Source: an uncultured virus (IMG/VR IMGVR_UViG_3300023371_000084) (Duplodnaviria; Heunggongvirae; Uroviricota; Caudoviricetes). Taken from it: 20,000 bases of DNA. A program made the position numbers and the translations under genes. The notes under the pieces were generated by a model that saw only the letters and a list, made by a program, of their open reading frames with translations, did not search any database and was not told where the DNA came from. The stretch lies in IMG/VR virus record IMGVR_UViG_3300023371_000084; one strand, given 5' to 3'. Shown in pieces: positions 5,230 to 20,000 of this stretch (positions within the stretch are counted from its first letter, which is position 1; each line of letters opens with the position of its first letter).

Positions 5230-5481
5230 ATGAACACAAATGGCAAGTATGTCCAGTATAGCAAACGAGTTGTCAGCATTGCTGGCATCGCATATTTGAT
5301 TCAGCTCATTGCAACAATTACGCTAGTGTGCGTATACAACTACGCAGCGAGTGCATTGCTGGATATTCTGGCGACGACAACCGGATTGGTTGGCGTAATC
5401 TTTGGATGCTATACGGGTAATTCTGCTGCTGAAAAGTATATTAGAAATAAGGCAGCAACAAACCTTAGTCCTTCTGGCTGA
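5230..5481 (+). CDS. Holin-like small membrane protein (2 predicted TM segments)
   Basis: Two hydrophobic stretches (VVSIAGIAYLIQLIATITLVCVY and LLDILATTTGLVGVIFGCY) and a basic C-terminus. It follows the hydrolase, with GGAGG before ATG 5230. Confidence 0.6.
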   Translation: MNTNGKYVQYSKRVVSIAGIAYLIQLIATITLVCVYNYAASALLDILATTTGLVGVIFGCYTGNSAAEKYIRNKAATNLSPSG

Positions 5482-5552
5482 TGAAATATCAGTTTTATCT
5501 TGAAGGATTCATGATGATTTGAAGTGTGTATGCACTTCTACCCCACTGTAAT

Positions 5553-5578
5553 AAGAGGGCAACATATGCCCTCTTTTT
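5553..5578 (+). terminator. Intrinsic terminator-like hairpin after the lysis pair
   Basis: AAGAGGGCA (5553-5561) / TGCCCTCTT (5567-5575), running into a T tract. Confidence 0.65.
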
Positions 5579-5612
5579 ATATACAGATTTTTGACGGAAG
5601 GTGGTGAGAAGA

Positions 5613-6797
5613 TTGAAAACATTTGAGCTATCTAAAAGAAATACAAAAAATGGACGAAGAAAATTCAAAATTGTCCTTTGTGAAGTATTTCATGAAGACA
5701 CGATTGACGAAGAGAATCAGGTTGGAACCAAGTACAACCGAAACGGCATTTCGTGGATTGAACCGTATGTTCGGGCGCATTTGGATACGATTCCCGGCAT
5801 GTTCCTGCGAGCGGAATTTTTGGACGAGGATCGTACTGAGCTAAACGGACATGGCGAGACAGGCTTTGAAGATGGTATGCCGGTTTTTGAAAACGCTGTT
5901 GATATCGGTACATTTACTAAAGGGTACATCGAAGATGTTGAAACGGAAGACGGCGTAAAGATGTATTGCATCGGCGAAGGTGAGATTGACGCAGCGTGTT
6001 ACAACAAGTTCGTCAAGAAGCTGGACAAAGATATTTCAAGCGGATCTCCACCTTACGGAAGCGTTGAAATTTTAAAGACCGACGATAACGATGCAATTGT
6101 TTACAAATATGGATATGTGCCTGAAGGCCGTATCCCGGTTGAGTTCCAATTCTCCGGTTACGCATTGCTTGGCGTTCAGCCAGCAGATGATGCGGCATAT
6201 ATCGTCGAGCTGAATAATGAGAACAAGGAGGATGCCACTACTATGACTGAGGCTGAGATTAAAGAGCTGGTTGCTCAGACCGTGAATGAAGTGTCTGCGC
6301 ATACAAGCGAAATGAATAAGTGCAAGGAAGAGTGTGAAGCCAAGATCAGCGAAGCGAATGCTACCGTTGAAGAGGCTACTGCAAATGTTGCTAAGCTTGA
6401 AGCTGCACTTGATGAGTGCAAGAAGGAGCTTGGCGAAAAGTATGAGGAGATTGATAAGCTCTACAAGGAGCTTGATGAGCTCCGCGAAATGCTTGCGAAA
6501 GCAAGGGCTAAAGAGCGCGTTGGCGAGCTGAATGAGGCTATTAAGGAATTCTCTGAGGAAGAGAAGCAGTATGCTCAGGCCGAGATTGATGCGTTCAATA
6601 GCGACCCGGTGAATTCCGAGATTAATTCTGTTGTGAATAGGATCTGGGAAGGTATCGGCAAGAAGTCTAAGGCTGATGCAGAGAAGCAGGCAGCTATCGT
6701 TGCCGAGCAGAATGCGGCTTCCGCTGCTGAGATTGAAGATATTTTCAGTGAAGTGAGCGCACCCGTTGCGAACACGGAAGATGAGAACATTTTCTAA
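5613..6797 (+). CDS. Prohead protease / scaffold fusion protein
   Basis: N-terminal globular domain with a GHGETG motif and GSVEI, followed by a long acidic coiled-coil C-terminus. Located between portal and capsid genes. Start is TTG 5613 (AAGGTGGTGA upstream) or GTG 5601. Confidence 0.75.
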   Translation: MKTFELSKRNTKNGRRKFKIVLCEVFHEDTIDEENQVGTKYNRNGISWIEPYVRAHLDTIPGMFLRAEFLDEDRTELNGHGETGFEDGMPVFENAVDIGTFTKGYIEDVETEDGVKMYCIGEGEIDAACYNKFVKKLDKDISSGSPPYGSVEILKTDDNDAIVYKYGYVPEGRIPVEFQFSGYALLGVQPADDAAYIVELNNENKEDATTMTEAEIKELVAQTVNEVSAHTSEMNKCKEECEAKISEANATVEEATANVAKLEAALDECKKELGEKYEEIDKLYKELDELREMLAKARAKERVGELNEAIKEFSEEEKQYAQAEIDAFNSDPVNSEINSVVNRIWEGIGKKSKADAEKQAAIVAEQNAASAAEIEDIFSEVSAPVANTEDENIF

Positions 6798-13399: not shown

Positions 13400-13951
13400 A
13401 TGAAAAATGTAGGAAAAGAATTTGAAGATGCCATTAAACGATCTGTTCCGGATCACATTTTATTATATCGTATTCCAGATGCCGCACAATCATTTGGAGG
13501 AGGCAATCTGAGATTTAGCAGAAAAAACCCATTTGATTTCATTATGTGGGATTCAAAAAGTCATATTTTATGCGCATTAGAAATGAAAACGGTTTCTGGC
13601 AAATCTGTTTCGTTTGAGCGAAACGAAAACGACCAAGGAGATATTCATCTTCACCAGATTCAGGGATTGCAGGAATGGAACAGGTATAACGGCATTGCCT
13701 GTGGATTCATTATTGAATTCAGGGGCATTGAAACGACAGTATTTGTTGATATACGCGGATTTGAGCGAGTTTCGAACGAGCTTTCAAAGAAGAGCTTTAC
13801 AATAAATGATCTTGATTCTCTTCATATTCGATATATTAAGATTCCACAAAAGAAAATTCGGACTCGATATAAATACGATATATCCAGCTTCGCTGAACAG
13901 ATTAGCAAGCATGGGTTTTACGATAAAGAGAAGGTTGAGGAAAAGTTATGA
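13400..13951 (+). CDS. recU: RecU-like Holliday junction resolvase (PD-(D/E)XK nuclease)
   Basis: GKEFE, PFDF, LEMKT and HLHQIQGL match RecU-family motifs. Confidence 0.8.
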   Translation: MKNVGKEFEDAIKRSVPDHILLYRIPDAAQSFGGGNLRFSRKNPFDFIMWDSKSHILCALEMKTVSGKSVSFERNENDQGDIHLHQIQGLQEWNRYNGIACGFIIEFRGIETTVFVDIRGFERVSNELSKKSFTINDLDSLHIRYIKIPQKKIRTRYKYDISSFAEQISKHGFYDKEKVEEKL

Positions 13952-14925: not shown

Positions 14926-14946
14926 TTGCATGAGGAGGCGGTTTCT

Positions 14947-15999
14947 GTGGGCAATCAAAAAACAGGAAGAACAACTGTATACAATAACATTACATCAGAA
15001 GAAAAACTGAAACAGGTAAACCCTGAGAATATCGAGCTAGAAAATGACTTCCTCGAATATCTGGCTTCTGTAGATCGCTCAAAGGGAACGATTAAACAGT
15101 ATAAAGCGAACCTTCATGTATTCTGGTGTTGGAACCTTGAATTCAATAAAAATAAATTCTTTGTTGATCTAACTAAGCGAGAAATTGCAAAATTTCAGAA
15201 TCATGCAATCAACGTCTGGATGTGGTCTCCAAAGAGGATTCGAACTGTAAAGGCAACCATTTCATCCCTTAGCAATTATGTCGAAAACATACTTGACGAT
15301 GAATATGAGGACTACAGGCCGATTGTTCGAAAAATTGAGTCTCCTGCCGATGTTGCTGTTCGGCAGAAGACAGTGTTTCAGGAAGAAGACCTCCAGCCAC
15401 TTCTGGATAGTCTTATTGCAAATGAAGAATACATGAAAGCATGTATGTTGTCGCTTGCAATGAATAGCGGACGTAGAAAGGCAGAGCTTCCAAGGTTTAA
15501 GGTTCATTATTTTGATAACGAAAACTTGATCTGTGAAGGAGCGCTTTATAAAACACCTGAGAAGGTGACTACAAAAGGACGCGGAAGCAGAGGTAAGTTA
15601 CTTGACATATATACGCTTGCAAAGCCGTTCAAGCCGTATTTAGATTTATGGCTTGCACAGCGAAAGGAGCTCAAGGTCAAGAGCGAGTGGCTATTCCCCC
15701 GCTATTTCGATGGAAAATGGCTGGATGAGCCAATGTCAACAACGACTCTTGATTCTTGGACAAAAAGCTTTGGTAAATTCTTTGGCAAACCATTTTACTG
15801 GCACAGCCTGAGACATTACCTTACAACGAAACTACATGAATTCGGCATTCCAGACAATATTATTCAAGACATGATCGGCTGGGAATCTGCTGATATGCTG
15901 AAAATTTATATTGATACGGAAGCTGACAAACAGTTTGAAAAATACTTCGGCGCGGAAGGAATCAAGAAAGGACGAAAGTCTGCGCTTGAAGAGTTATAA
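14947..15999 (+). CDS. Tyrosine recombinase (integrase / XerCD family)
   Basis: Catalytic set SGRRKAEL (R), TKGRG (K), HSLRH (HxxR), IGW (W in place of H) and KIY (Y). GTG 14947 follows GAGGAGG. Confidence 0.9.
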   Translation: MGNQKTGRTTVYNNITSEEKLKQVNPENIELENDFLEYLASVDRSKGTIKQYKANLHVFWCWNLEFNKNKFFVDLTKREIAKFQNHAINVWMWSPKRIRTVKATISSLSNYVENILDDEYEDYRPIVRKIESPADVAVRQKTVFQEEDLQPLLDSLIANEEYMKACMLSLAMNSGRRKAELPRFKVHYFDNENLICEGALYKTPEKVTTKGRGSRGKLLDIYTLAKPFKPYLDLWLAQRKELKVKSEWLFPRYFDGKWLDEPMSTTTLDSWTKSFGKFFGKPFYWHSLRHYLTTKLHEFGIPDNIIQDMIGWESADMLKIYIDTEADKQFEKYFGAEGIKKGRKSALEEL

Positions 16000-16034: not shown

Positions 16035-16046
16035 ATGGGAGGAAAC

Positions 16047-17984
16047 ATGTCTGAATTTACAGCAAAAATACAAGCGATTTTAGACACTAAGAAAATCCCA
16101 TCGCAAATTGCCAACATTGAAAAATCAAAAATTACACTGAGCAGGTTTACCCTCGATACAAAGAAGTTGCCGTCTCAAATTCAGGCATCCCTTGATCGTC
16201 ATAATTTCATGATCAGGCTGGATGGCATTAAAACTGATAGTCTTACTACTCAGATTAAAACGGCGGCGAATCGATCGGGTAAATCTTTTTCTCAGCAGTT
16301 AGTTGATAGGATCAATGCACAGCTATCAAATGGTGGAATTGAAGCGTCTATCGCAAGGGTAACTGCGCAATATGAAAAGCTTGGGTCAACGGGGCATGCC
16401 AAGCTCAAAACTATTGGTGCAGATCTTGAAACGTTAAACAGACTTCATAGGGATCTTGCTAAGAATCAAAATGCGCCCAAGGCGCTGATTAAAACATATG
16501 ACTCATACATTGATACACTTACACAAGTAAAAAACAATCTTGTGACCGTATCATCTCAAAGCAAAGTGACGATTAGTTCTCTCCAATCAGGAAAACTCAG
16601 CAATTCAATGAGTGACTGGATGGGAAAAAATACGCGGGCAACAAAGGAATTTGGTTCTGCGATTGATGATCTTCAAAACAGATTACGTTCACTATCTTCG
16701 TCTGGTAATCTAACTCAGGTTGATTTTGACAACATTAAAAACGAATTTGAGAGCATCGTACAGAGAGCAAATCAGGCTGGTCTAGCAGGGGAAACATTTG
16801 GCTCACGTATGAGTAGGACATTTAGCAACATGTTCCGATACTTTGGAGCTGCAGAAGTCCTGCACCGTATTGAAGACGTTCTCAAATCCATGGCAGAAAA
16901 TGTTGTTGCCGTTGATACGGCGATGACTGGACTATATCGTGTTACTGAACTTACGGATGAAGAATATCAGAAGATGTACGGTAATATGGTGAAGTCTGCA
17001 AAGCAGTACGGAACAGAACTTACCGATATTATCAATTCAACTGCTGATTGGGCAAAGCTTGGTTTTGACCCAAATGAAGCGCAAGAGCTTGCAAATATCA
17101 CATCCATGTATCAGCATGTTACTGATTTGAACACAGAAACCGCTGTAAATAATCTAGTGACAGCTTATAAAGGATTTGAAGATCAGCTTCTTGAGCTTAC
17201 TGGCGGAGATGTGTCTGCTGCCGTTGAATACGTTGCTGATATCTTTGATAAGCTTGGCAATGAGTTTGCCGTAAGCGCAAGCGATGTTGGCGAAGCTTTG
17301 ACTCGATCTGCTTCCGCGCTACAAGTGGCTGGCAATAGCATTCAGGAAACTGCTGCTATGGCAACGGGTATTACTGAGGTTACGCAGAATGCTGCTAAAG
17401 CTGGTAATGCACTGAGAACGCTATCCATGCGACTGCGTGGCACAACTGCTGCAGAGCTTGAAGCAATTGGAGAAGATGCAGAGGGATTAATTGAAGTTAC
17501 ATCATCACTGCAAAGTGCAATCAATGATTTGACGGGTGTGAATCTTGTTGAATCAAATGGTGATTTGAGATCCACTTATGATGTAATGCGAGACCTTGCA
17601 AATGTATGGGATACGCTTGGAACAAACACGCAATCCAGAGTGCTTGAGATCATTGCTGGCAAGAACAGAGCCAGTGATGTTGCTGCGCTTCTTAGCAATT
17701 GGGAGCAGGTTGAAAAAGCTATGCTTGCTTCTACGGATGCTTGGGGAACTGCGGCTGCAGAACAAGAAAAGTATGTTGAATCTATTCAGGGACATCTTAA
17801 TCAGCTCAAAACTGCGTGGCAGGCGCTATCAAATTCGTTGATCAAATCCGATTTCCTGAAAGGACTAATTGATACTGGATCTGCTGCGCTTAACACGCTT
17901 GATTGGATAATCAATAGAATCGGTACATTGCCGACGCTGATTGGAGCGGCTTTTGCCGGTCTTTCAATTGGCAAAAACGTGGGT
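16047..17984 (+). CDS. Tail tape measure protein, exon 1 (646 codons; TP901-family core domain)
   Basis: ATG 16047 after GGAGG. Ala/Thr-rich helical TMP core (VDTAMTGL, WAKLGF, LGNEFAVS, GNALRTLSMRL, IAGKNRAS). Ends ...KNVG at the predicted 5' splice site. The unspliced frame continues 31 aa to TAA at 18080. Confidence 0.9.
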
Positions 17985-18389
17985 GAACTAATGAATCAGT
18001 TCCAACACCGGATTATACTACGGATTGAATATGCCCACGAAGCTTTTACTAACAGTAATGTGAACGAGATTGCATGCTAAACTCGAAGTGCAATCAAGAG
18101 GGCTCCATGAAAACAGGATAAACTGATGTAAGTAATGGTTCTTGCATCGACAGACTGGGACGCATAATGCGCAAAGCTGTATATTATAGCGCATTATTGC
18201 TATCAGCAACCATTGCCTGAATACGAGATCAGGTAGGCTCAGAGGACATAAACCTGCGCGGCGGAAGTCGTGAATGTATGTTGCAAACTGTACTCGGCCA
18301 CAGCAAATGCCGGGGTAAAAACCAAACCAGTGCGCTAACTGGAGTATAGAAAATAGCGGGCTCTTCTACCCTTCCATATGCTTGAATGG

Positions 18390-18421
18390 AAAAAGAAAAT
18401 GGCAGAACAAGATTCTGCCAT
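18390..18421 (-). terminator. Intrinsic terminator of the intron cargo transcript
   Basis: Minus strand reads ATGGCAGAA-tcttg-TTCTGCCAT then TTTCTTTTT: a perfect 9-bp stem plus U tract, about 113 nt downstream of the cargo stop codon. Confidence 0.8.
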
Positions 18422-18534
18422 GAACATCGAAGCCGGTGTCGTTCCGAAATGCGGTACGCAGGTGGAGTTCTTTGTGGGTTGTGCGAAAACCACTAATCGG
18501 AGTAGGCAAAAGCCGAACGAAAACGCTCAAACGT

Positions 18535-18990
18535 TTACCATTTGTATCCACAGTTATTGCATTCAAATTGCGATGTTGCTGTTTTGCTAAAAAGCCCAAA
18601 TGCATAACCGTGGATTGCACGCTTCATGCCAGATATTTTCTTTATATTACTAGAATTACAGGTGGGACATTTGGGTACATTCTTATTTTGCGATTTTTGC
18701 TTTTGACGGAATTCGTTATTGAATTGATCAAATGCGTTATCACTTGCTTCTTTTGTTCTTGCGAATTGACACATCTGAGTATCGAAAATAGGATTGTGCT
18801 TGATTTCTTCGTCGTATAATACACTTTCCCATTTCTGGCTGTCTTTATACAACTGCATTGCTTTTCCCTTGTAGTATTCAGTATTTCGTTTGGATTCATG
18901 GTATGGAAGACCAGATTTGCAATACCTACAATGATCCATTTTAAAATATAAAGTTGTGCCACAAACGGGGCAATAATAGAAATACGACAT
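18535..18990 (-). CDS. Intron-borne antisense double zinc-ribbon protein of unknown function (151 aa)
   Basis: CPVC..CRYC at the N-terminus. CPTC..(GYAFGLFS hydrophobic loop)..CNNCGYKW at the C-terminus. GGAG 9 nt before ATG 18990. Has its own promoter and terminator. Confidence 0.85.
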   Translation of the reverse strand: MSYFYYCPVCGTTLYFKMDHCRYCKSGLPYHESKRNTEYYKGKAMQLYKDSQKWESVLYDEEIKHNPIFDTQMCQFARTKEASDNAFDQFNNEFRQKQKSQNKNVPKCPTCNSSNIKKISGMKRAIHGYAFGLFSKTATSQFECNNCGYKW

Positions 18991-19020
18991 TGCAATCAAC
19001 TCCAGATTATTTCTGACTAC

Positions 19021-19049
19021 ATTATATTCTTGTATTCTTTTCTCGTCAA
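19021..19049 (-). promoter_or_regulatory. Near-consensus sigmaA/sigma70 promoter driving the cargo gene
   Basis: Minus strand TTGACG (19049-19044), 17-nt spacer, TATAAT (19026-19021). Confidence 0.85.
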
Positions 19050-19101
19050 TACTTTATCTGCAATATTTTTCAAAGCACAAGCACTTTGATGAACAGTTTT
19101 G

Positions 19102-20000
19102 ATATTCAAAGCAATAGAAGATGAGGCGACAAAGAGCGGTTTAAGAATCAAGAGCATATTTGGAGATGTGGCAAGCAATGTAAAAATGTTGTTTTCGAAT
19201 ATGCAACTCTCCGTTCTTTCTCAGGACAACAAGAGAGCGCAAACTTTTGACATCTCTGCTCTTGTTCGTTATAGGACTGCGTTGCTCAATAATGTTGATG
19301 CAGAACAGGCTTATAACGATTGCATGAAGAATACTTCCGCATGGGCTCAACAGATTGCTCGTGAATTTAGAATCGATGAGATGTCAATGATCGATCTTGC
19401 CAAGGCAACAAGGTCGCATTACATTGAGCTGCAAGCAAGTGAAAAATCATGGAAAACGATTAAATCGCTAATTGGAGAGTATAGCTCTGGATGCAAAGAG
19501 ACTAATCTTACGCAACAAGAGTTTATTGGCGCTATTGCAAAATCCAATCAGGGACTTGCTGGATATCTCAATAGCTTAAACGGAGCAAAGGGATCTCTCG
19601 TAGGTTATATTGGCTACCTTGCAAAAACAGAAGCAATGACGCTTGGCGTGCGTACTGCTACTGTATTGGCAAATGCCGCTGTTTCTGCATTTGCTTCGTT
19701 TGCTATTTCTTGGGTTGTTTCCAAGATAACAGAATGGATTAACGCAGAAAAAGAAGCACGCGAAGCTTTACTGAATACGGGTAAAGCCGCCAAAGAAGAA
19801 GCTGACCGCATCCGTGATCTATACAGCGCATATGCTGACGCCAAAGGAGCATACGACGGAACTGATTCTTCAAAACAAACGCTTAAATCGACAAGTGAAG
19901 ACCTATTAATTGCACTTGGCCTTGAACGTTCTGAGATCGAAAAGCTGACCGAAGACTACGACGGCCTATCCAAGAAGATCGACGAAATAACGACGGATAC
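19102..20000 (+). CDS. Tail tape measure protein, exon 2 (partial, runs off the window; absent from the ORF track)
   Basis: Hand translation gives 299 stop-free codons (IFKAIEDEATKSG...LANAAVSAFASFAISWVVSKITEW...DEITTD) with TMP-like helical composition. An in-frame TGA sits at 19090-19092, just upstream of the 3' splice site, and no RBS is evident. Confidence 0.85.
   Translation, partial: MFKAIEDEATKSGLRIKSIFGDVASNVKMLFSNMQLSVLSQDNKRAQTFDISALVRYRTALLNNVDAEQAYNDCMKNTSAWAQQIAREFRIDEMSMIDLAKATRSHYIELQASEKSWKTIKSLIGEYSSGCKETNLTQQEFIGAIAKSNQGLAGYLNSLNGAKGSLVGYIGYLAKTEAMTLGVRTATVLANAAVSAFASFAISWVVSKITEWINAEKEAREALLNTGKAAKEEADRIRDLYSAYADAKGAYDGTDSSKQTLKSTSEDLLIALGLERSEIEKLTEDYDGLSKKIDEITTD

What the first reader, a model, noticed from the sequence alone, without database searches (positions are those of the whole stretch)
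18390..19049. Intron used as a neutral landing pad for an autonomous antisense accessory gene rather than a homing endonuclease
Seen in sequence: a complete minus-strand unit lies between P9 and the 3' strand of P9.0. It comprises a TTGACG-N17-TATAAT promoter, a GGAG RBS, a 151-aa ORF and a 9-bp hairpin with U tract. The terminator would stop transcription before the ribozyme core. The protein shows no HNH, GIY-YIG or LAGLIDADG motif by eye. Established knowledge: phage group I intron ORFs are usually homing endonucleases. Inference: this is a moron-like cassette hidden in an essential virion gene and expressible by host RNA polymerase in the lysogen or early in infection. It could be a variable slot for defence, superinfection exclusion or anti-defence genes. 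This is the best candidate for an undescribed system in the window.
Basis: partly seen in the sequence, partly recalled or inferred. Interest (0 to 1): 0.9.

Follow-up and report, generated by a model that had tools for sequence, protein, structure and literature searches.

The report
Phage tail-gene intron carrying passenger genes
A self-splicing intron that splits a gut phage's tail-length gene carries a backwards-facing small zinc-binding protein gene with its own on and off signals, plus a folded RNA of unknown function, and related phages use the same intron loop to carry other passengers, including a known anti-phage defence system.

Summary
On the minus strand lie a TTGACG-17-TATAAT promoter, a GGAG ribosome site, a 151-aa ORF (18990..18535) and a hairpin with a T tract.

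They sit inside a 1117-nt intervening sequence (17985..19101) that splits the tape-measure gene. Uninterrupted homologues join the two halves exactly at this point. A guide sequence pairs with both exon ends and co-varies with them. The 5' 415 nt is a covariation-supported, pseudoknotted fold of group I type. Rfam's group I model does not recognise it.

The ORF has no nuclease signature. It is not random cargo either. Of 160 loci fetched by similarity to it alone, 114 hold tape-measure sequence, 113 of them only on the opposite strand.

The loop is a variable bay. One relative carries DarT/DarG, others carry membrane proteins, and one carries a different small gene. Some alleles have no intron.

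The "terminator" hairpin doubles as the 5' hairpin seen in four of the seven other drum loci printed. Here drum lacks its usual promoter, terminator and PBECR4 partner gene.

The protein's function is unknown. Earlier notes of this scan describe the same layout on other DNA.

The parts
16035..17984 (+). Tape-measure gene, exon 1 (650 codons, ends ...AAC GTG GGT)
   Evidence: PF10145 PhageMin_Tail, E 1.2e-22. Uninterrupted homologues align up to residue 650 and then continue directly with exon 2.
17985..19101 (+). Intervening sequence of 1117 nt: a group I-type intron that begins after U17984 and ends with G19101
   Evidence: P0146 joins 726|727 and P0252 joins 807|808. P1 and P10 pairing was mapped. 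There is no Rfam Intron_gpI match.
18025..18039 (+). Internal guide: TTGAATAT (pairs with the start of exon 2, ATATTCAA; P10) followed by GCCCACG (pairs with the end of exon 1, CGTGGGT; P1, with U17984 opposite G18033)
   Evidence: In helix 1 the U.G pair is kept in 7 of 7 sequences. The guide co-varies with the exons in L206, L204, L208, L209, L210 and L222.
17985..18398 (+). Conserved folded core. My labels: P3 18114-18117/18253-18256 (pseudoknot), P4 18155-18158/18203-18206, P5 18162-18200, P6 18208-18239, P7 18245-18250/18277-18282, P8 18257-18272, P9 hairpins 18293-18367
   Evidence: RNAalifold on 7 sequences gave 101 pairs, 46 with compensatory changes. With the pseudoknot added, 96% of cells pair and 48 of 105 pairs change on both sides, against 5-9 in the slid controls.
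18399..18421 (.). Hairpin with two readings. On the minus strand it is an intrinsic terminator of the ORF's transcript (tail TTTCTTTTTC). On the plus strand it is a hairpin abutting the 5' end of the drum RNA.
   Evidence: Terminator scan. My reading of the printed flanks (no fold was computed) finds a hairpin in the same place in four of the seven other drum loci printed: L198, L199 (imperfect), L200 and L283/L284, which are identical in the printed flanks. L200's is similar in sequence to the window's.
18422..18531 (+). drum RNA (Rfam RF02958), same orientation as the tape-measure gene, with no promoter or terminator of its own
   Evidence: 74.1 bits against a gathering score of 43, model positions 1-112 of 112. 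No plus-strand promoter or terminator beside it was found. No PBECR4 gene is in the 29-kb record.
18535..18990 (-). 151-aa double zinc-ribbon protein gene (P0001), stop codon included
   Evidence: AlphaFold2 model with mean pLDDT 85. No fold or family match beyond generic zinc ribbons.
19000..19003 (-). GGAG ribosome-binding site
19021..19049 (-). Sigma-70-type promoter TTGACG-17-TATAAT
   Evidence: Promoters matching 12 of 12 lie at the equivalent place in L209 and L207.
19071..19088 (+). 3'-terminal intron hairpin (CAAAG/CUUUG) whose loop holds CAAGCA, complementary to UGCUUG at 18379-18384
   Evidence: The stem differs while the loop is kept in 5 clade members. The loop pairing is my inference; both partners are invariant, so covariation cannot test it.
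19102..20000 (+). Tape-measure gene, exon 2 (starts ATA TTC AAA = IFK; runs off the end of the contig)
   Evidence: No Shine-Dalgarno motif precedes the nominal TTG at 19099.

Best explanation
The flagged unit is an autonomous accessory gene. It has its own sigma-70 promoter, ribosome site, 151-aa double zinc-ribbon protein and terminator. It is housed backwards in the terminal-loop 'cargo bay' of a self-splicing group I-type intron that splits the phage tape-measure gene at a conserved codon boundary (..K-N-V-G | I-F-K..).

How it most likely works:
1. Inferred: host RNA polymerase transcribes the gene leftwards from about 19014, whenever sigma-70 promoters are active (prophage or early infection). 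Transcription stops at the hairpin 18421..18399, so no long antisense RNA against the ribozyme core is made.
2. Inferred from structure, not shown: late in infection the tape-measure pre-mRNA is read through the whole intron. The guide 18025..18039 aligns both exon ends. The core folds, because the cargo sits in a peripheral loop closed by the 3' hairpin. Splicing joins GGU to AUA and restores one long tape-measure protein.
3. Shown by comparison: the bay is variable. The zinc-ribbon gene is its commonest resident, always next to the 3' splice site. Between that gene and the core, relatives carry DarT/DarG, membrane proteins or other genes. This phage carries a promoter-less drum RNA that can only be made as part of the intron RNA.

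The protein has no nuclease features. I take it to be a nucleic-acid-binding factor used in phage-host or phage-phage competition, not a homing endonuclease. That last step is the weakest: I put it at about 55% within this explanation.
For: Exact excision point:
- Uninterrupted homologues join exon-1 residue 650 to exon-2 residue 'I' with no gap (P0146 726|727, P0252 807|808).
- L211 and L212 are intron-less alleles.

Guide pairing that co-varies with the exon end (exon 1 end / guide):
- GTGGGT/GCCCAC (window, L207)
- GTTGGT/GCCAAC (L206)
- GTCGGT/GCCGAC (L204, L210)
- GCAGGT/GCCTGC (L208)
- ATCGGT/GCCGAT (L209, L222)
- P10 of 6-9 bp and a terminal G were found in all 10 introns whose 3' end I mapped.

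Fold:
- 96% of cells pair, and 48 of 105 pairs carry compensatory changes, against 5-9 in slid controls.
- The P3 pseudoknot is 100% paired, with 2 of its 4 pairs changed on both sides.

Autonomy:
- Promoter, ribosome site and terminator are present here.
- L209 has a 12-of-12 promoter plus a different terminator, and L207 has a 12-of-12 promoter.

Not a recognisable nuclease:
- Pfam, PHROGs, NCBIfam and PADLOC give only sub-threshold zinc-ribbon matches.
- Foldseek's best E-value is 0.5 and VIA's best Z is 2.8.
- The PDB profile search found nothing below E 0.89.
- No HNH, GIY-YIG or LAGLIDADG family was found in 54 further ORFs from 16 interrupted loci.

Variable bay:
- L096 holds DarT (PADLOC E 3.9e-32) and DarG (E 2.5e-94) inside the 2992-nt intron.
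- L207 holds two membrane-protein ORFs, one with its own promoter and terminator.
- L104 holds three other ORFs.
- L165 holds a different 127-aa antisense gene.

Members of the family also occur outside tape-measure genes, for example next to a prophage integrase in L083, as accessory genes do.
Against: - No expression or splicing data exist. No RNA run holds the stretch, and the four DNA runs laid showed no spliced or cargo-less form.
- Rfam's group I model gives no match here, even at E<=10, nor above its gathering score in 12 related loci. The class therefore rests on my own structural reading.
- My core has an extra hairpin (18124..18149) between P3 and P4. That is not canonical.
- The zinc-ribbon family is tied to this one site and orientation (113 of 114). 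That is the signature expected of a homing gene, not of a free accessory gene.
- The family's function is unknown. A missing nuclease motif does not exclude a new kind of nuclease, or a targeting subunit.
- Whether this phage is temperate is not shown. The record is only 19% complete.
Confidence: 0.6

Rival explanations
1. The zinc-ribbon protein is the intron's own mobility factor: either a new kind of homing endonuclease, or a DNA-targeting subunit that recruits another nuclease to the intron-less tape-measure allele. The other cargo merely hitch-hikes.
For: - The family is strongly linked to one site. Of 160 loci fetched by the protein alone, 114 hold tape-measure sequence, 113 of them on the opposite strand only. 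39 are flanked on both sides.
- It is always the gene nearest the 3' splice site, in all 7 members of the window's intron clade.
- No other endonuclease candidate was found in these introns.
- The C-terminal ribbon weakly resembles the IS1595 transposase zinc ribbon. This is sub-threshold for the window's own protein (PF12760, E 0.044), but L071's homologue scores 25.4 bits, equal to Pfam's cut-off of 25.4 (E 1.4e-05).
- The target sequence around the site is conserved as AAAAAYGTNGGT|ATATTY.
Against: - There is no catalytic motif, and the only invariant acidic residue is E62.
- No structural similarity to any nuclease was found.
- Introns at the same site persist without it: L165/L206, L210, and the 19 loci of the AAACAAT type.
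- 46 of the 160 loci show no tape-measure context.
Confidence: 0.17
2. There is no splicing. The tape measure is made as two separate proteins, and the 1.1 kb between them is an ordinary intergenic accessory island.
For: - Rfam finds no intron.
- At least 20 of the 150 listed database proteins start exactly at the exon-2 position.
- A TTG lies one codon before exon 2.
Against: - The guide sequence co-varies with both exon ends in 8 loci.
- 415 nt of RNA structure is conserved by compensatory change.
- There is no Shine-Dalgarno motif before 19099, whereas 14 of the 21 other listed starts have one.
- Fused homologues are collinear across the point.
- NTG start codons called there are what a gene caller would pick when an intron ends in ..UG.
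Confidence: 0.05
3. What matters is the RNA, not the protein. The minus-strand transcript, which carries the full complement of drum, or the excised intron, which carries drum itself, acts on drum-PBECR4 modules of the host or of rival phages, as an antitoxin-like decoy or as its antisense. The ORF is secondary.
For: - Four of the seven other drum loci printed (L198, L199, L200, L283) have the layout promoter, hairpin, drum, terminator, PBECR4-type gene. L201 has that layout apart from the hairpin, which I do not see there. The layout resembles type III toxin-antitoxin loci; that comparison is recalled, not tested.
- The window keeps an intact drum (74 bits) without the nuclease gene.
- A 96%-identical relative keeps the whole stretch without any insertion or deletion (run X12).
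Against: - drum was found in no other tape-measure intron. It occurred in 4 of 50 related phage records, always elsewhere.
- 20 loci with homologues of the ORF have no drum.
- The ORF is conserved as a protein across 714 homologues.
- Nothing shows that drum neutralises PBECR4.
Confidence: 0.1

Closest known systems
Group I introns in tape-measure genes of Bacillus cereus-group prophages (TMP-IVS1, IVS2, IVS3; Tourasse and Kolsto 2008, PMC2504315; passages read)
   Same: A self-splicing intron lies in a prophage or phage tape-measure gene. Different introns adapt to one site through P1 and the guide sequence. Many lack a homing endonuclease gene, which left their spread 'a puzzling question'.
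   Different: Those introns are of classes IA1 and IA2, and hold either nothing or GIY-YIG or HNH genes. The words 'antisense' and 'opposite strand' do not occur in that paper. Here the loop holds autonomous non-nuclease genes and an RNA, and Rfam does not recognise the core.
Morons: autonomous promoter-gene-terminator units of prophages (concept recalled from the phage literature; no paper read here)
   Same: The unit has its own sigma-70 promoter and terminator. It is present, absent or replaced between related phages. It lies inside the late structural region.
   Different: Classical morons lie between genes. This unit lies inside an essential gene, made harmless by an intron, and its commonest member is tied to one site.
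Antisense homing endonuclease genes in nuclear rDNA group I introns (PMC9548176; search listing and abstract only)
   Same: A protein gene lies on the strand opposite to the intron and its host gene.
   Different: Those are His-Cys box nucleases in eukaryotic rDNA. Here the setting is a phage and the protein has no nuclease signature.
drum RNA (Rfam RF02958; Weinberg et al. 2017, PMC5737381; passages read; supplement not readable)
   Same: The full-length match is above the family threshold, and the context is a phage of Bacillota.
   Different: The published motif is followed by a terminator and is associated with a nearby protein gene. The window's copy has neither and sits inside an intron.
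DarTG and other defence systems carried in prophage hotspots (PADLOC models DarT and DarG)
   Same: In relative L096 the same bay carries a complete DarT-DarG pair.
   Different: The carrier is an intron loop within a structural gene, not an intergenic hotspot. The window itself carries no known defence gene.

Membership tests
Group I intron | The 5' splice site follows a U that forms a U.G wobble with the internal guide sequence (P1) | tested here: met
   U17984 pairs with G18033. The U.G pair is kept in 7 of 7 aligned sequences (helix 1). The guide co-varies with the exon in 8 loci.
Group I intron | The last intron nucleotide is G, and the start of the 3' exon pairs with the guide next to P1 (P10) | tested here: met
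   G19101, with ATATTCAA pairing to TTGAATAT (8 bp). A terminal G was found in all 10 introns whose 3' end I mapped. P10 is 6-9 bp in 9 of them and only about 4 bp in L204.
Group I intron | Core of P3-P8 and P4-P6 with the P3/P7 pseudoknot | tested here: met
   The pseudoknot helix 18114-17/18253-56 is 100% paired, with 2 of 4 pairs changed on both sides. P4-P6, P7 and P8 are supported. The helix names are my own assignment, and an extra hairpin lies between P3 and P4. In the sister clade (L204, L206, L209, L210, L222) I read the canonical order P3-J3/4-P4 by eye.
Group I intron | Recognised by the curated covariance model (Rfam RF00028) | tested here: not met
   No match at gathering score or at E<=10 in the window, and none at gathering score in 12 related loci. 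This is a test of likeness to the model, not a defining property.
Group I intron | Self-splicing with an external guanosine | not testable with these tools
   No RNA data.
Homing endonuclease (LAGLIDADG, GIY-YIG, HNH, His-Cys box, PD-(D/E)xK, EDxHD) | Catalytic domain or motif of one of the families | tested here: not met
   No such Pfam, PHROGs or NCBIfam match. The PDB profile search found nothing. E62 is the only invariant acidic residue.
Homing endonuclease (LAGLIDADG, GIY-YIG, HNH, His-Cys box, PD-(D/E)xK, EDxHD) | Nuclease fold | tested here: inconclusive
   Foldseek's best E-value is 0.5 and VIA-wide's best Z is 2.8, on zinc ribbons of TFIIB and NrdR type. A weak search result does not exclude a new fold.
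Homing endonuclease (LAGLIDADG, GIY-YIG, HNH, His-Cys box, PD-(D/E)xK, EDxHD) | The gene is linked to one insertion site | tested here: met
   114 of 160 loci hold tape-measure sequence, 113 on the opposite strand only. The same junction recurs, e.g. P0146 726|727 in L005 and L096.
Homing endonuclease (LAGLIDADG, GIY-YIG, HNH, His-Cys box, PD-(D/E)xK, EDxHD) | Cuts the intron-less allele | not testable with these tools
   A biochemical assay is needed.
drum RNA (RF02958) | Score above the family's gathering threshold over the whole model | tested here: met
   74.1 bits against 43, positions 1-112 of 112.
drum RNA (RF02958) | Rho-independent terminator at the 3' end (Weinberg 2017) | tested here: not met
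   No plus-strand terminator follows 18531. The ORF's stop codon lies 3 nt away. My reading of the printed flanks finds a terminator-type hairpin in six of the seven other drum loci printed: L198, L199, L200, L201 and L283/L284, which are identical in the printed flanks. I see none in L285.
drum RNA (RF02958) | Associated protein gene nearby (in my sample: PBECR4, PF18813) | tested here: not met
   No PF18813 match in the 29-kb record. Three loci have a Pfam-confirmed PBECR4 gene 45-56 nt downstream of drum (L199, L200, L283). Two more (L198, L201) have short look-alike ORFs that Pfam did not score. The paper's own statement of the partner is in a supplement I could not read.
Moron-type autonomous accessory unit | Own promoter and own terminator flanking the gene | tested here: met
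   The same design is seen in L209 and L207. These are consensus matches only.
Moron-type autonomous accessory unit | Present, absent or replaced between related phages | tested here: met
   Absent together with the intron in L211 and L212. Replaced in L165. Accompanied by other genes in L207, L104 and L096.
Moron-type autonomous accessory unit | Expressed from the prophage | not testable with these tools
   No RNA holder is listed. The lifestyle of this phage is not established.

The most novel reading that the evidence does not exclude
The intron family at this tape-measure site is a dedicated, mobile cargo platform for phage-warfare genes. It can carry a defence system such as DarTG, membrane proteins that may exclude other phages, and orphan RNAs.

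The conserved antisense zinc-ribbon protein is the platform's own maintenance or mobility factor, of a nuclease-free kind not yet described.

In this phage the cargo is a drum RNA released in bulk by splicing of a late transcript. It acts as an antitoxin-like decoy against the drum-PBECR4 modules carried by competing phages or by the host.
Probability: 0.15. Interest if true: 0.85.

Novelty: new variant of a known kind. Interest (0 to 1): 0.68.

Why it matters
Group I introns in phages are regarded as selfish ribozymes that either carry a homing endonuclease or carry nothing.

Here an intron loop inside an essential virion gene is used repeatedly as a safe harbour for self-contained genes. One relative holds a complete anti-phage defence system there.

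If this holds, there are three consequences:
- Introns become a further class of 'hotspot' where defence and counter-defence genes hide. Gene callers split the host gene at the intron, and the cargo looks intergenic, so such sites are easily missed.
- It gives a simple way to find new accessory genes: read what sits in the loop.
- It raises a testable question: how do such introns spread without a recognisable nuclease, and is the conserved zinc-ribbon protein the answer?

It also places the orphan drum RNA in a defined setting and links drum to PBECR4 nuclease genes. Both points can be tested at the bench.

Tried and rejected
- Rfam found no group I or group II intron in the window: gathering score, and E<=10 on 1.5 kb. 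It found none in 12 related loci or in L163-L165.
- The phage GenBank collection has no DNA match to 17000..20000 and no protein match to exon 2. The exon-1 part matches tape-measure genes at <=36% identity.
- My first DNA pattern for drum gave 32 chance matches and no true drum.
- I tested whether drum is the partner RNA of the zinc-ribbon family and rejected it. None of 20 homologue loci has drum. Drum occurs in 4 of 50 related records, never in the tape-measure gene.
- MAFFT of the window's intron against L165's was uninformative. Ten mixed introns aligned only within clades.
- An exon-2 protein alignment was too diverged for a locus search.
- For the AAACAAT-type and AGTATTCA-type loci I could not map the 3' splice site. 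In the AGTATTCA type my projected exon end is GGC, so the 5' site is not mapped either.
- Structure searches with the AlphaFold2 model found nothing: Foldseek PDB and VIA wide. The same holds for the ESM Atlas, which returned only unnamed viral clusters, and the PDB sequence profile.
- PADLOC has no match for P0001 or P0122.
- Sequencing runs: no RNA holder is listed. Contigs of X7, X8, X9 and X12 showed no joint, so no spliced or cargo-less DNA form was seen. X8 and X9 leave parts uncovered, which proves nothing.
- Literature searches found no paper on a phage group I intron with non-nuclease antisense or defence cargo, nor on drum with PBECR4 (listings and abstracts only, library limits apply).
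- The supplement of Weinberg 2017 that names the drum-associated protein could not be read.
Full report
**What is there**

The window is the minus strand of a 29-kb, 19%-complete viral record, and its last base is the end of the contig. It encodes a phage late region (portal, structural genes).

A 681-codon ORF, 16035..18080, carries the tape-measure domain PF10145 (E 1.2e-22). The plus-strand frame re-opens at 19093 and runs to the window end.

All its elements are present:
- promoter TTGACG-17-TATAAT at 19049..19021;
- GGAG at 19003..19000;
- ATG at 18990, stop at 18535, giving 151 aa;
- a 10-pair hairpin at 18421..18399, followed by TTTCTTTTTC.

The count of promoter-like sites in the region is no higher than in shuffles (4 against 4.1). 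However, relatives have perfect 12-of-12 promoters at the equivalent position (L209 and L207).

**The interruption is an intron**

A search of 1.8 billion representative proteins with the downstream frame found long tape-measure proteins in which this region is internal.

BLAST of both halves against them shows exact collinearity. In P0146, exon-1 residue 650 matches residue 726 and the 'I' at nt 19102 matches residue 727. In P0252 the join is 807|808. In P0125 it is 817|819.

The intervening sequence is therefore 17985..19101, 1117 nt. It begins after a U and ends with a G.

Forty-eight nucleotides into it lies TTGAATAT|GCCCAC(G). The right part pairs with the end of exon 1, (C)GTGGGT, placing U17984 opposite G18033. 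The left part pairs with the first eight bases of exon 2, ATATTCAA.

The same bipartite guide occurs in relatives and changes together with the exon end:

| Exon 1 end | Guide | Loci |
|---|---|---|
| GTGGGT | GCCCAC | window, L207 |
| GTTGGT | GCCAAC | L206 |
| GTCGGT | GCCGAC | L204, L210 |
| GCAGGT | GCCTGC | L208 |
| ATCGGT | GCCGAT | L209, L222 |

P10 helices are 6-9 bp, and a terminal G is present in all 10 introns whose 3' end I could map.

**The fold**

nhmmer found six further members of the window's intron clade: L207, L104, L071, L139, L096 and L208.

On their alignment RNAalifold predicts 101 pairs, 46 of them with compensatory changes. I added a pseudoknot helix found by eye, 18114-18117 with 18253-18256. 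It reads CAGG/CCUG, UAGG/CCUA, UGGG/CCCA or UGGG/CUCA in different members.

With that helix included:
- 96% of cells pair;
- 48 of 105 pairs change on both sides, against 5-9 in the slid controls;
- none of 500 shuffles reaches the observed covariation score.

The order of helices reads as P1, P3, P4-P5, P6, P7, P3', P8, P7', P9 (coordinates). The segments GGYUCAGAGGACAUAAAC and GAAUGUAUGUUGC resemble the classical R and S elements. That resemblance is recalled from memory, not tested.

Two reservations apply. First, an extra, well-supported hairpin (18124..18149) lies between P3 and P4. Second, Rfam's group I model finds nothing here, even at E<=10, and nothing above its gathering score in 12 relatives.

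In the sister clade (L204, L206, L209, L210, L222) I read the canonical order P3-J3/4-P4 from the alignment, with P3 and P7 co-varying. I did not count this formally.

The last 30 nt of the intron form a hairpin whose stem differs between members. Its loop keeps CAAGCA, which is complementary to UGCUUG at 18379-18384, just before the cargo. The cargo thus sits in a loop closed by these elements.

No Shine-Dalgarno motif precedes the nominal TTG at 19099.

**How common the intron is**

Of 80 tape-measure loci fetched from viral contigs, 72 reach the site.
- In 54 the frame closes within 73 codons.
- In 18 it runs on to the end of the locus.

The exact-site cases all end exon 1 in GGT. They show four different intron starts. 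Sixteen further loci project to GGC, and their splice site is not mapped.

Many loci come from one large data set, so they are not independent.

Group I introns in tape-measure genes are already published for Bacillus cereus-group prophages (PMC2504315, passages read).

**The protein**

P0001 has 714 homologues of similar length. It has an N-terminal CxxC..CxxC ribbon, a helical middle, and a very conserved C-terminal ribbon, NxPKCPTCxSxxIxKIS..FGxFSKTAxSQFxCxNCGYKW.

The AlphaFold2 model is confident, with a mean pLDDT of 85. It matches nothing beyond generic zinc ribbons.

No library names the family.

No nuclease family appears in it, nor in 54 other ORFs from 16 interrupted loci.

**It is not random cargo**

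I fetched 160 loci from viral and bacterial contigs by similarity to this protein alone.
- 114 hold tape-measure-like sequence.
- In 113 of those it lies only on the opposite strand.
- In 39 it flanks the gene on both sides, often at the very same junction, for example P0146 726|727 in L005 and L096.

In all seven members of the window's clade it is the gene next to the 3' splice site. Shorter proteins that keep only the C-terminal ribbon occupy the same place in other loci.

The remaining 46 loci show other contexts, for example next to a prophage integrase in L083.

**The bay is variable**

| Locus | Intron length | What the bay holds |
|---|---|---|
| L165/L206 | 722 nt | A different 127-aa antisense gene with a C-terminal membrane helix |
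| L207 | 2726 nt | Two membrane-protein ORFs, one with its own consensus promoter and terminator, plus the zinc-ribbon gene |
| L104 | 2431 nt | Three other ORFs |
| L096 | 2992 nt | DarT (PADLOC E 3.9e-32) and DarG (E 2.5e-94), on the tape-measure strand, plus the zinc-ribbon gene |
| L211, L212 | none | No intron |

L096 is a contig of a Ruminococcus genome bin.

Retropepsin-like ORFs recur downstream of exon 1 in six more distant loci.

**The drum RNA**

Rfam places a full-length drum RNA on the plus strand at 18422..18531, scoring 74.1 bits against a gathering score of 43. It fills the space between the ORF's stop codon and the hairpin.

I printed seven other drum loci with their flanks (L198, L199, L200, L201, L283, L284, L285). 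L283 and L284 are identical in the printed flanks. The statements below are my reading of those flanks; no fold was computed.
- Promoter-like hexamers lie upstream of drum in L198, L199, L201 and L283/L284. I see none in L200 or L285.
- A hairpin abuts the 5' end of drum in L198, L199 (imperfect), L200 and L283/L284. L200's is similar in sequence to the window's. I see none in L201 or L285.
- A terminator-type hairpin follows drum in every locus except L285.
- A PBECR4-type gene starts 45-56 nt downstream in five loci: L198, L199, L200, L201 and L283. Pfam confirms it in L199, L200 and L283. L198 and L201 have only short look-alike ORFs that Pfam did not score.

The window's 'terminator' therefore doubles as a hairpin of the kind that precedes drum elsewhere. 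An A-run on its 5' side, not seen before the hairpins of the other loci, supplies the minus-strand T tract.

The window's drum has no promoter, no terminator and no PBECR4 gene in the record. It can only be made as part of the intron RNA, while the ORF's transcript carries its complement.

Drum occurs in 4 of 50 related phage records, never inside the tape-measure gene, and in 4 of 151 genomes of one bacterial order.

A 96%-identical relative keeps the whole 1.7 kb without insertion or deletion (run X12).

Weinberg et al. 2017 report an unnamed protein association for drum. Their supplement could not be read.

**Reading**

The structural claims I hold with good confidence:
- the intron and its exact boundaries;
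- the autonomous antisense unit;
- the variable bay;
- drum as an RNA passenger.

The function of the zinc-ribbon protein is open. I favour an accessory, nucleic-acid-binding competition factor. The tight linkage to one site keeps a role in mobility alive (about 0.17).

I found no expression data.

**Earlier notes of this scan**

Earlier notes describe the same layout on other DNA. These are a tape-measure intron with an antisense zinc-ribbon passenger in an SPbeta-like phage (e1-5779140), an antisense cargo promoter at the tail of such an intron (e1-5844777), and introns with RNA or operon-gene cargo (e1-5915777, e1-5749258).

I did not test those notes. I found no paper that describes this arrangement in my searches.

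Noticed in passing
L198:1501-1884, L199:1501-2250, L200:862-1609, L283:845-1607, L201:1243-1605: In five drum loci a PBECR4-type nuclease gene starts 45-56 nt after drum, beyond a terminator-type hairpin. Pfam confirms it in L199, L200 and L283; L198 and L201 have only short look-alike ORFs. In four of the five (not L201) a hairpin abuts the 5' end of drum. The layout looks like a type III toxin-antitoxin locus. That comparison is recalled. A search for PBECR4 found one unrelated paper.
   Followed up: partly
L096:2888-5879 (minus strand is the tape-measure sense): A complete DarT-DarG pair lies inside the tape-measure intron of a prophage-like contig from a Ruminococcus genome bin.
   Followed up: yes
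window 14926-15999 (+): A tyrosine-recombinase (integrase-family) gene sits directly upstream of the tape-measure gene, where tail chaperone genes usually lie. It is 73% identical in L165, which is more conserved than the tape-measure protein itself at 56%.
   Followed up: partly
window 13400-13951 (+): A RecU-like Holliday-junction resolvase (PHROG 843, E 9.8e-20) lies within the late or structural region.
   Followed up: no
L241:6287-6709, L246:6059-6469, L233:6354-6782, L254:6044-6541, L269:6043-6540, L274:6877-7269: Retropepsin-like aspartyl-protease ORFs (PF13975/PF13650) recur just downstream of tape-measure exon 1 in six more distant loci.
   Followed up: no
proteins (e.g. P0124, P0143, P0161, P0169): At least 20 of the 150 listed database 'proteins' start one codon before the exon-2 boundary. 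Gene callers evidently split these tape-measure genes at the intron, using the intron's final NTG as a start codon.
   Followed up: partly
window 18003-18027 and the same columns of A7: A hairpin inside the P1 loop has a co-varying stem and a conserved 10-nt loop, GAUUAUACUA, in 5 of 7 clade members. Its role is unknown.
   Followed up: no
L006:2811-2892 and L089:1135-1493, 5478-5715: One homologue of the zinc-ribbon gene lies beside an RT-18 RNA (Rfam RF03021). Another lies between two tRNA gene arrays.
   Followed up: no
L227:6154-9217: About 3 kb with four or five unnamed ORFs on both strands separates the tape-measure halves in the 19 loci of the AAACAAT intron type. The 3' splice site was not mapped.
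   Followed up: partly
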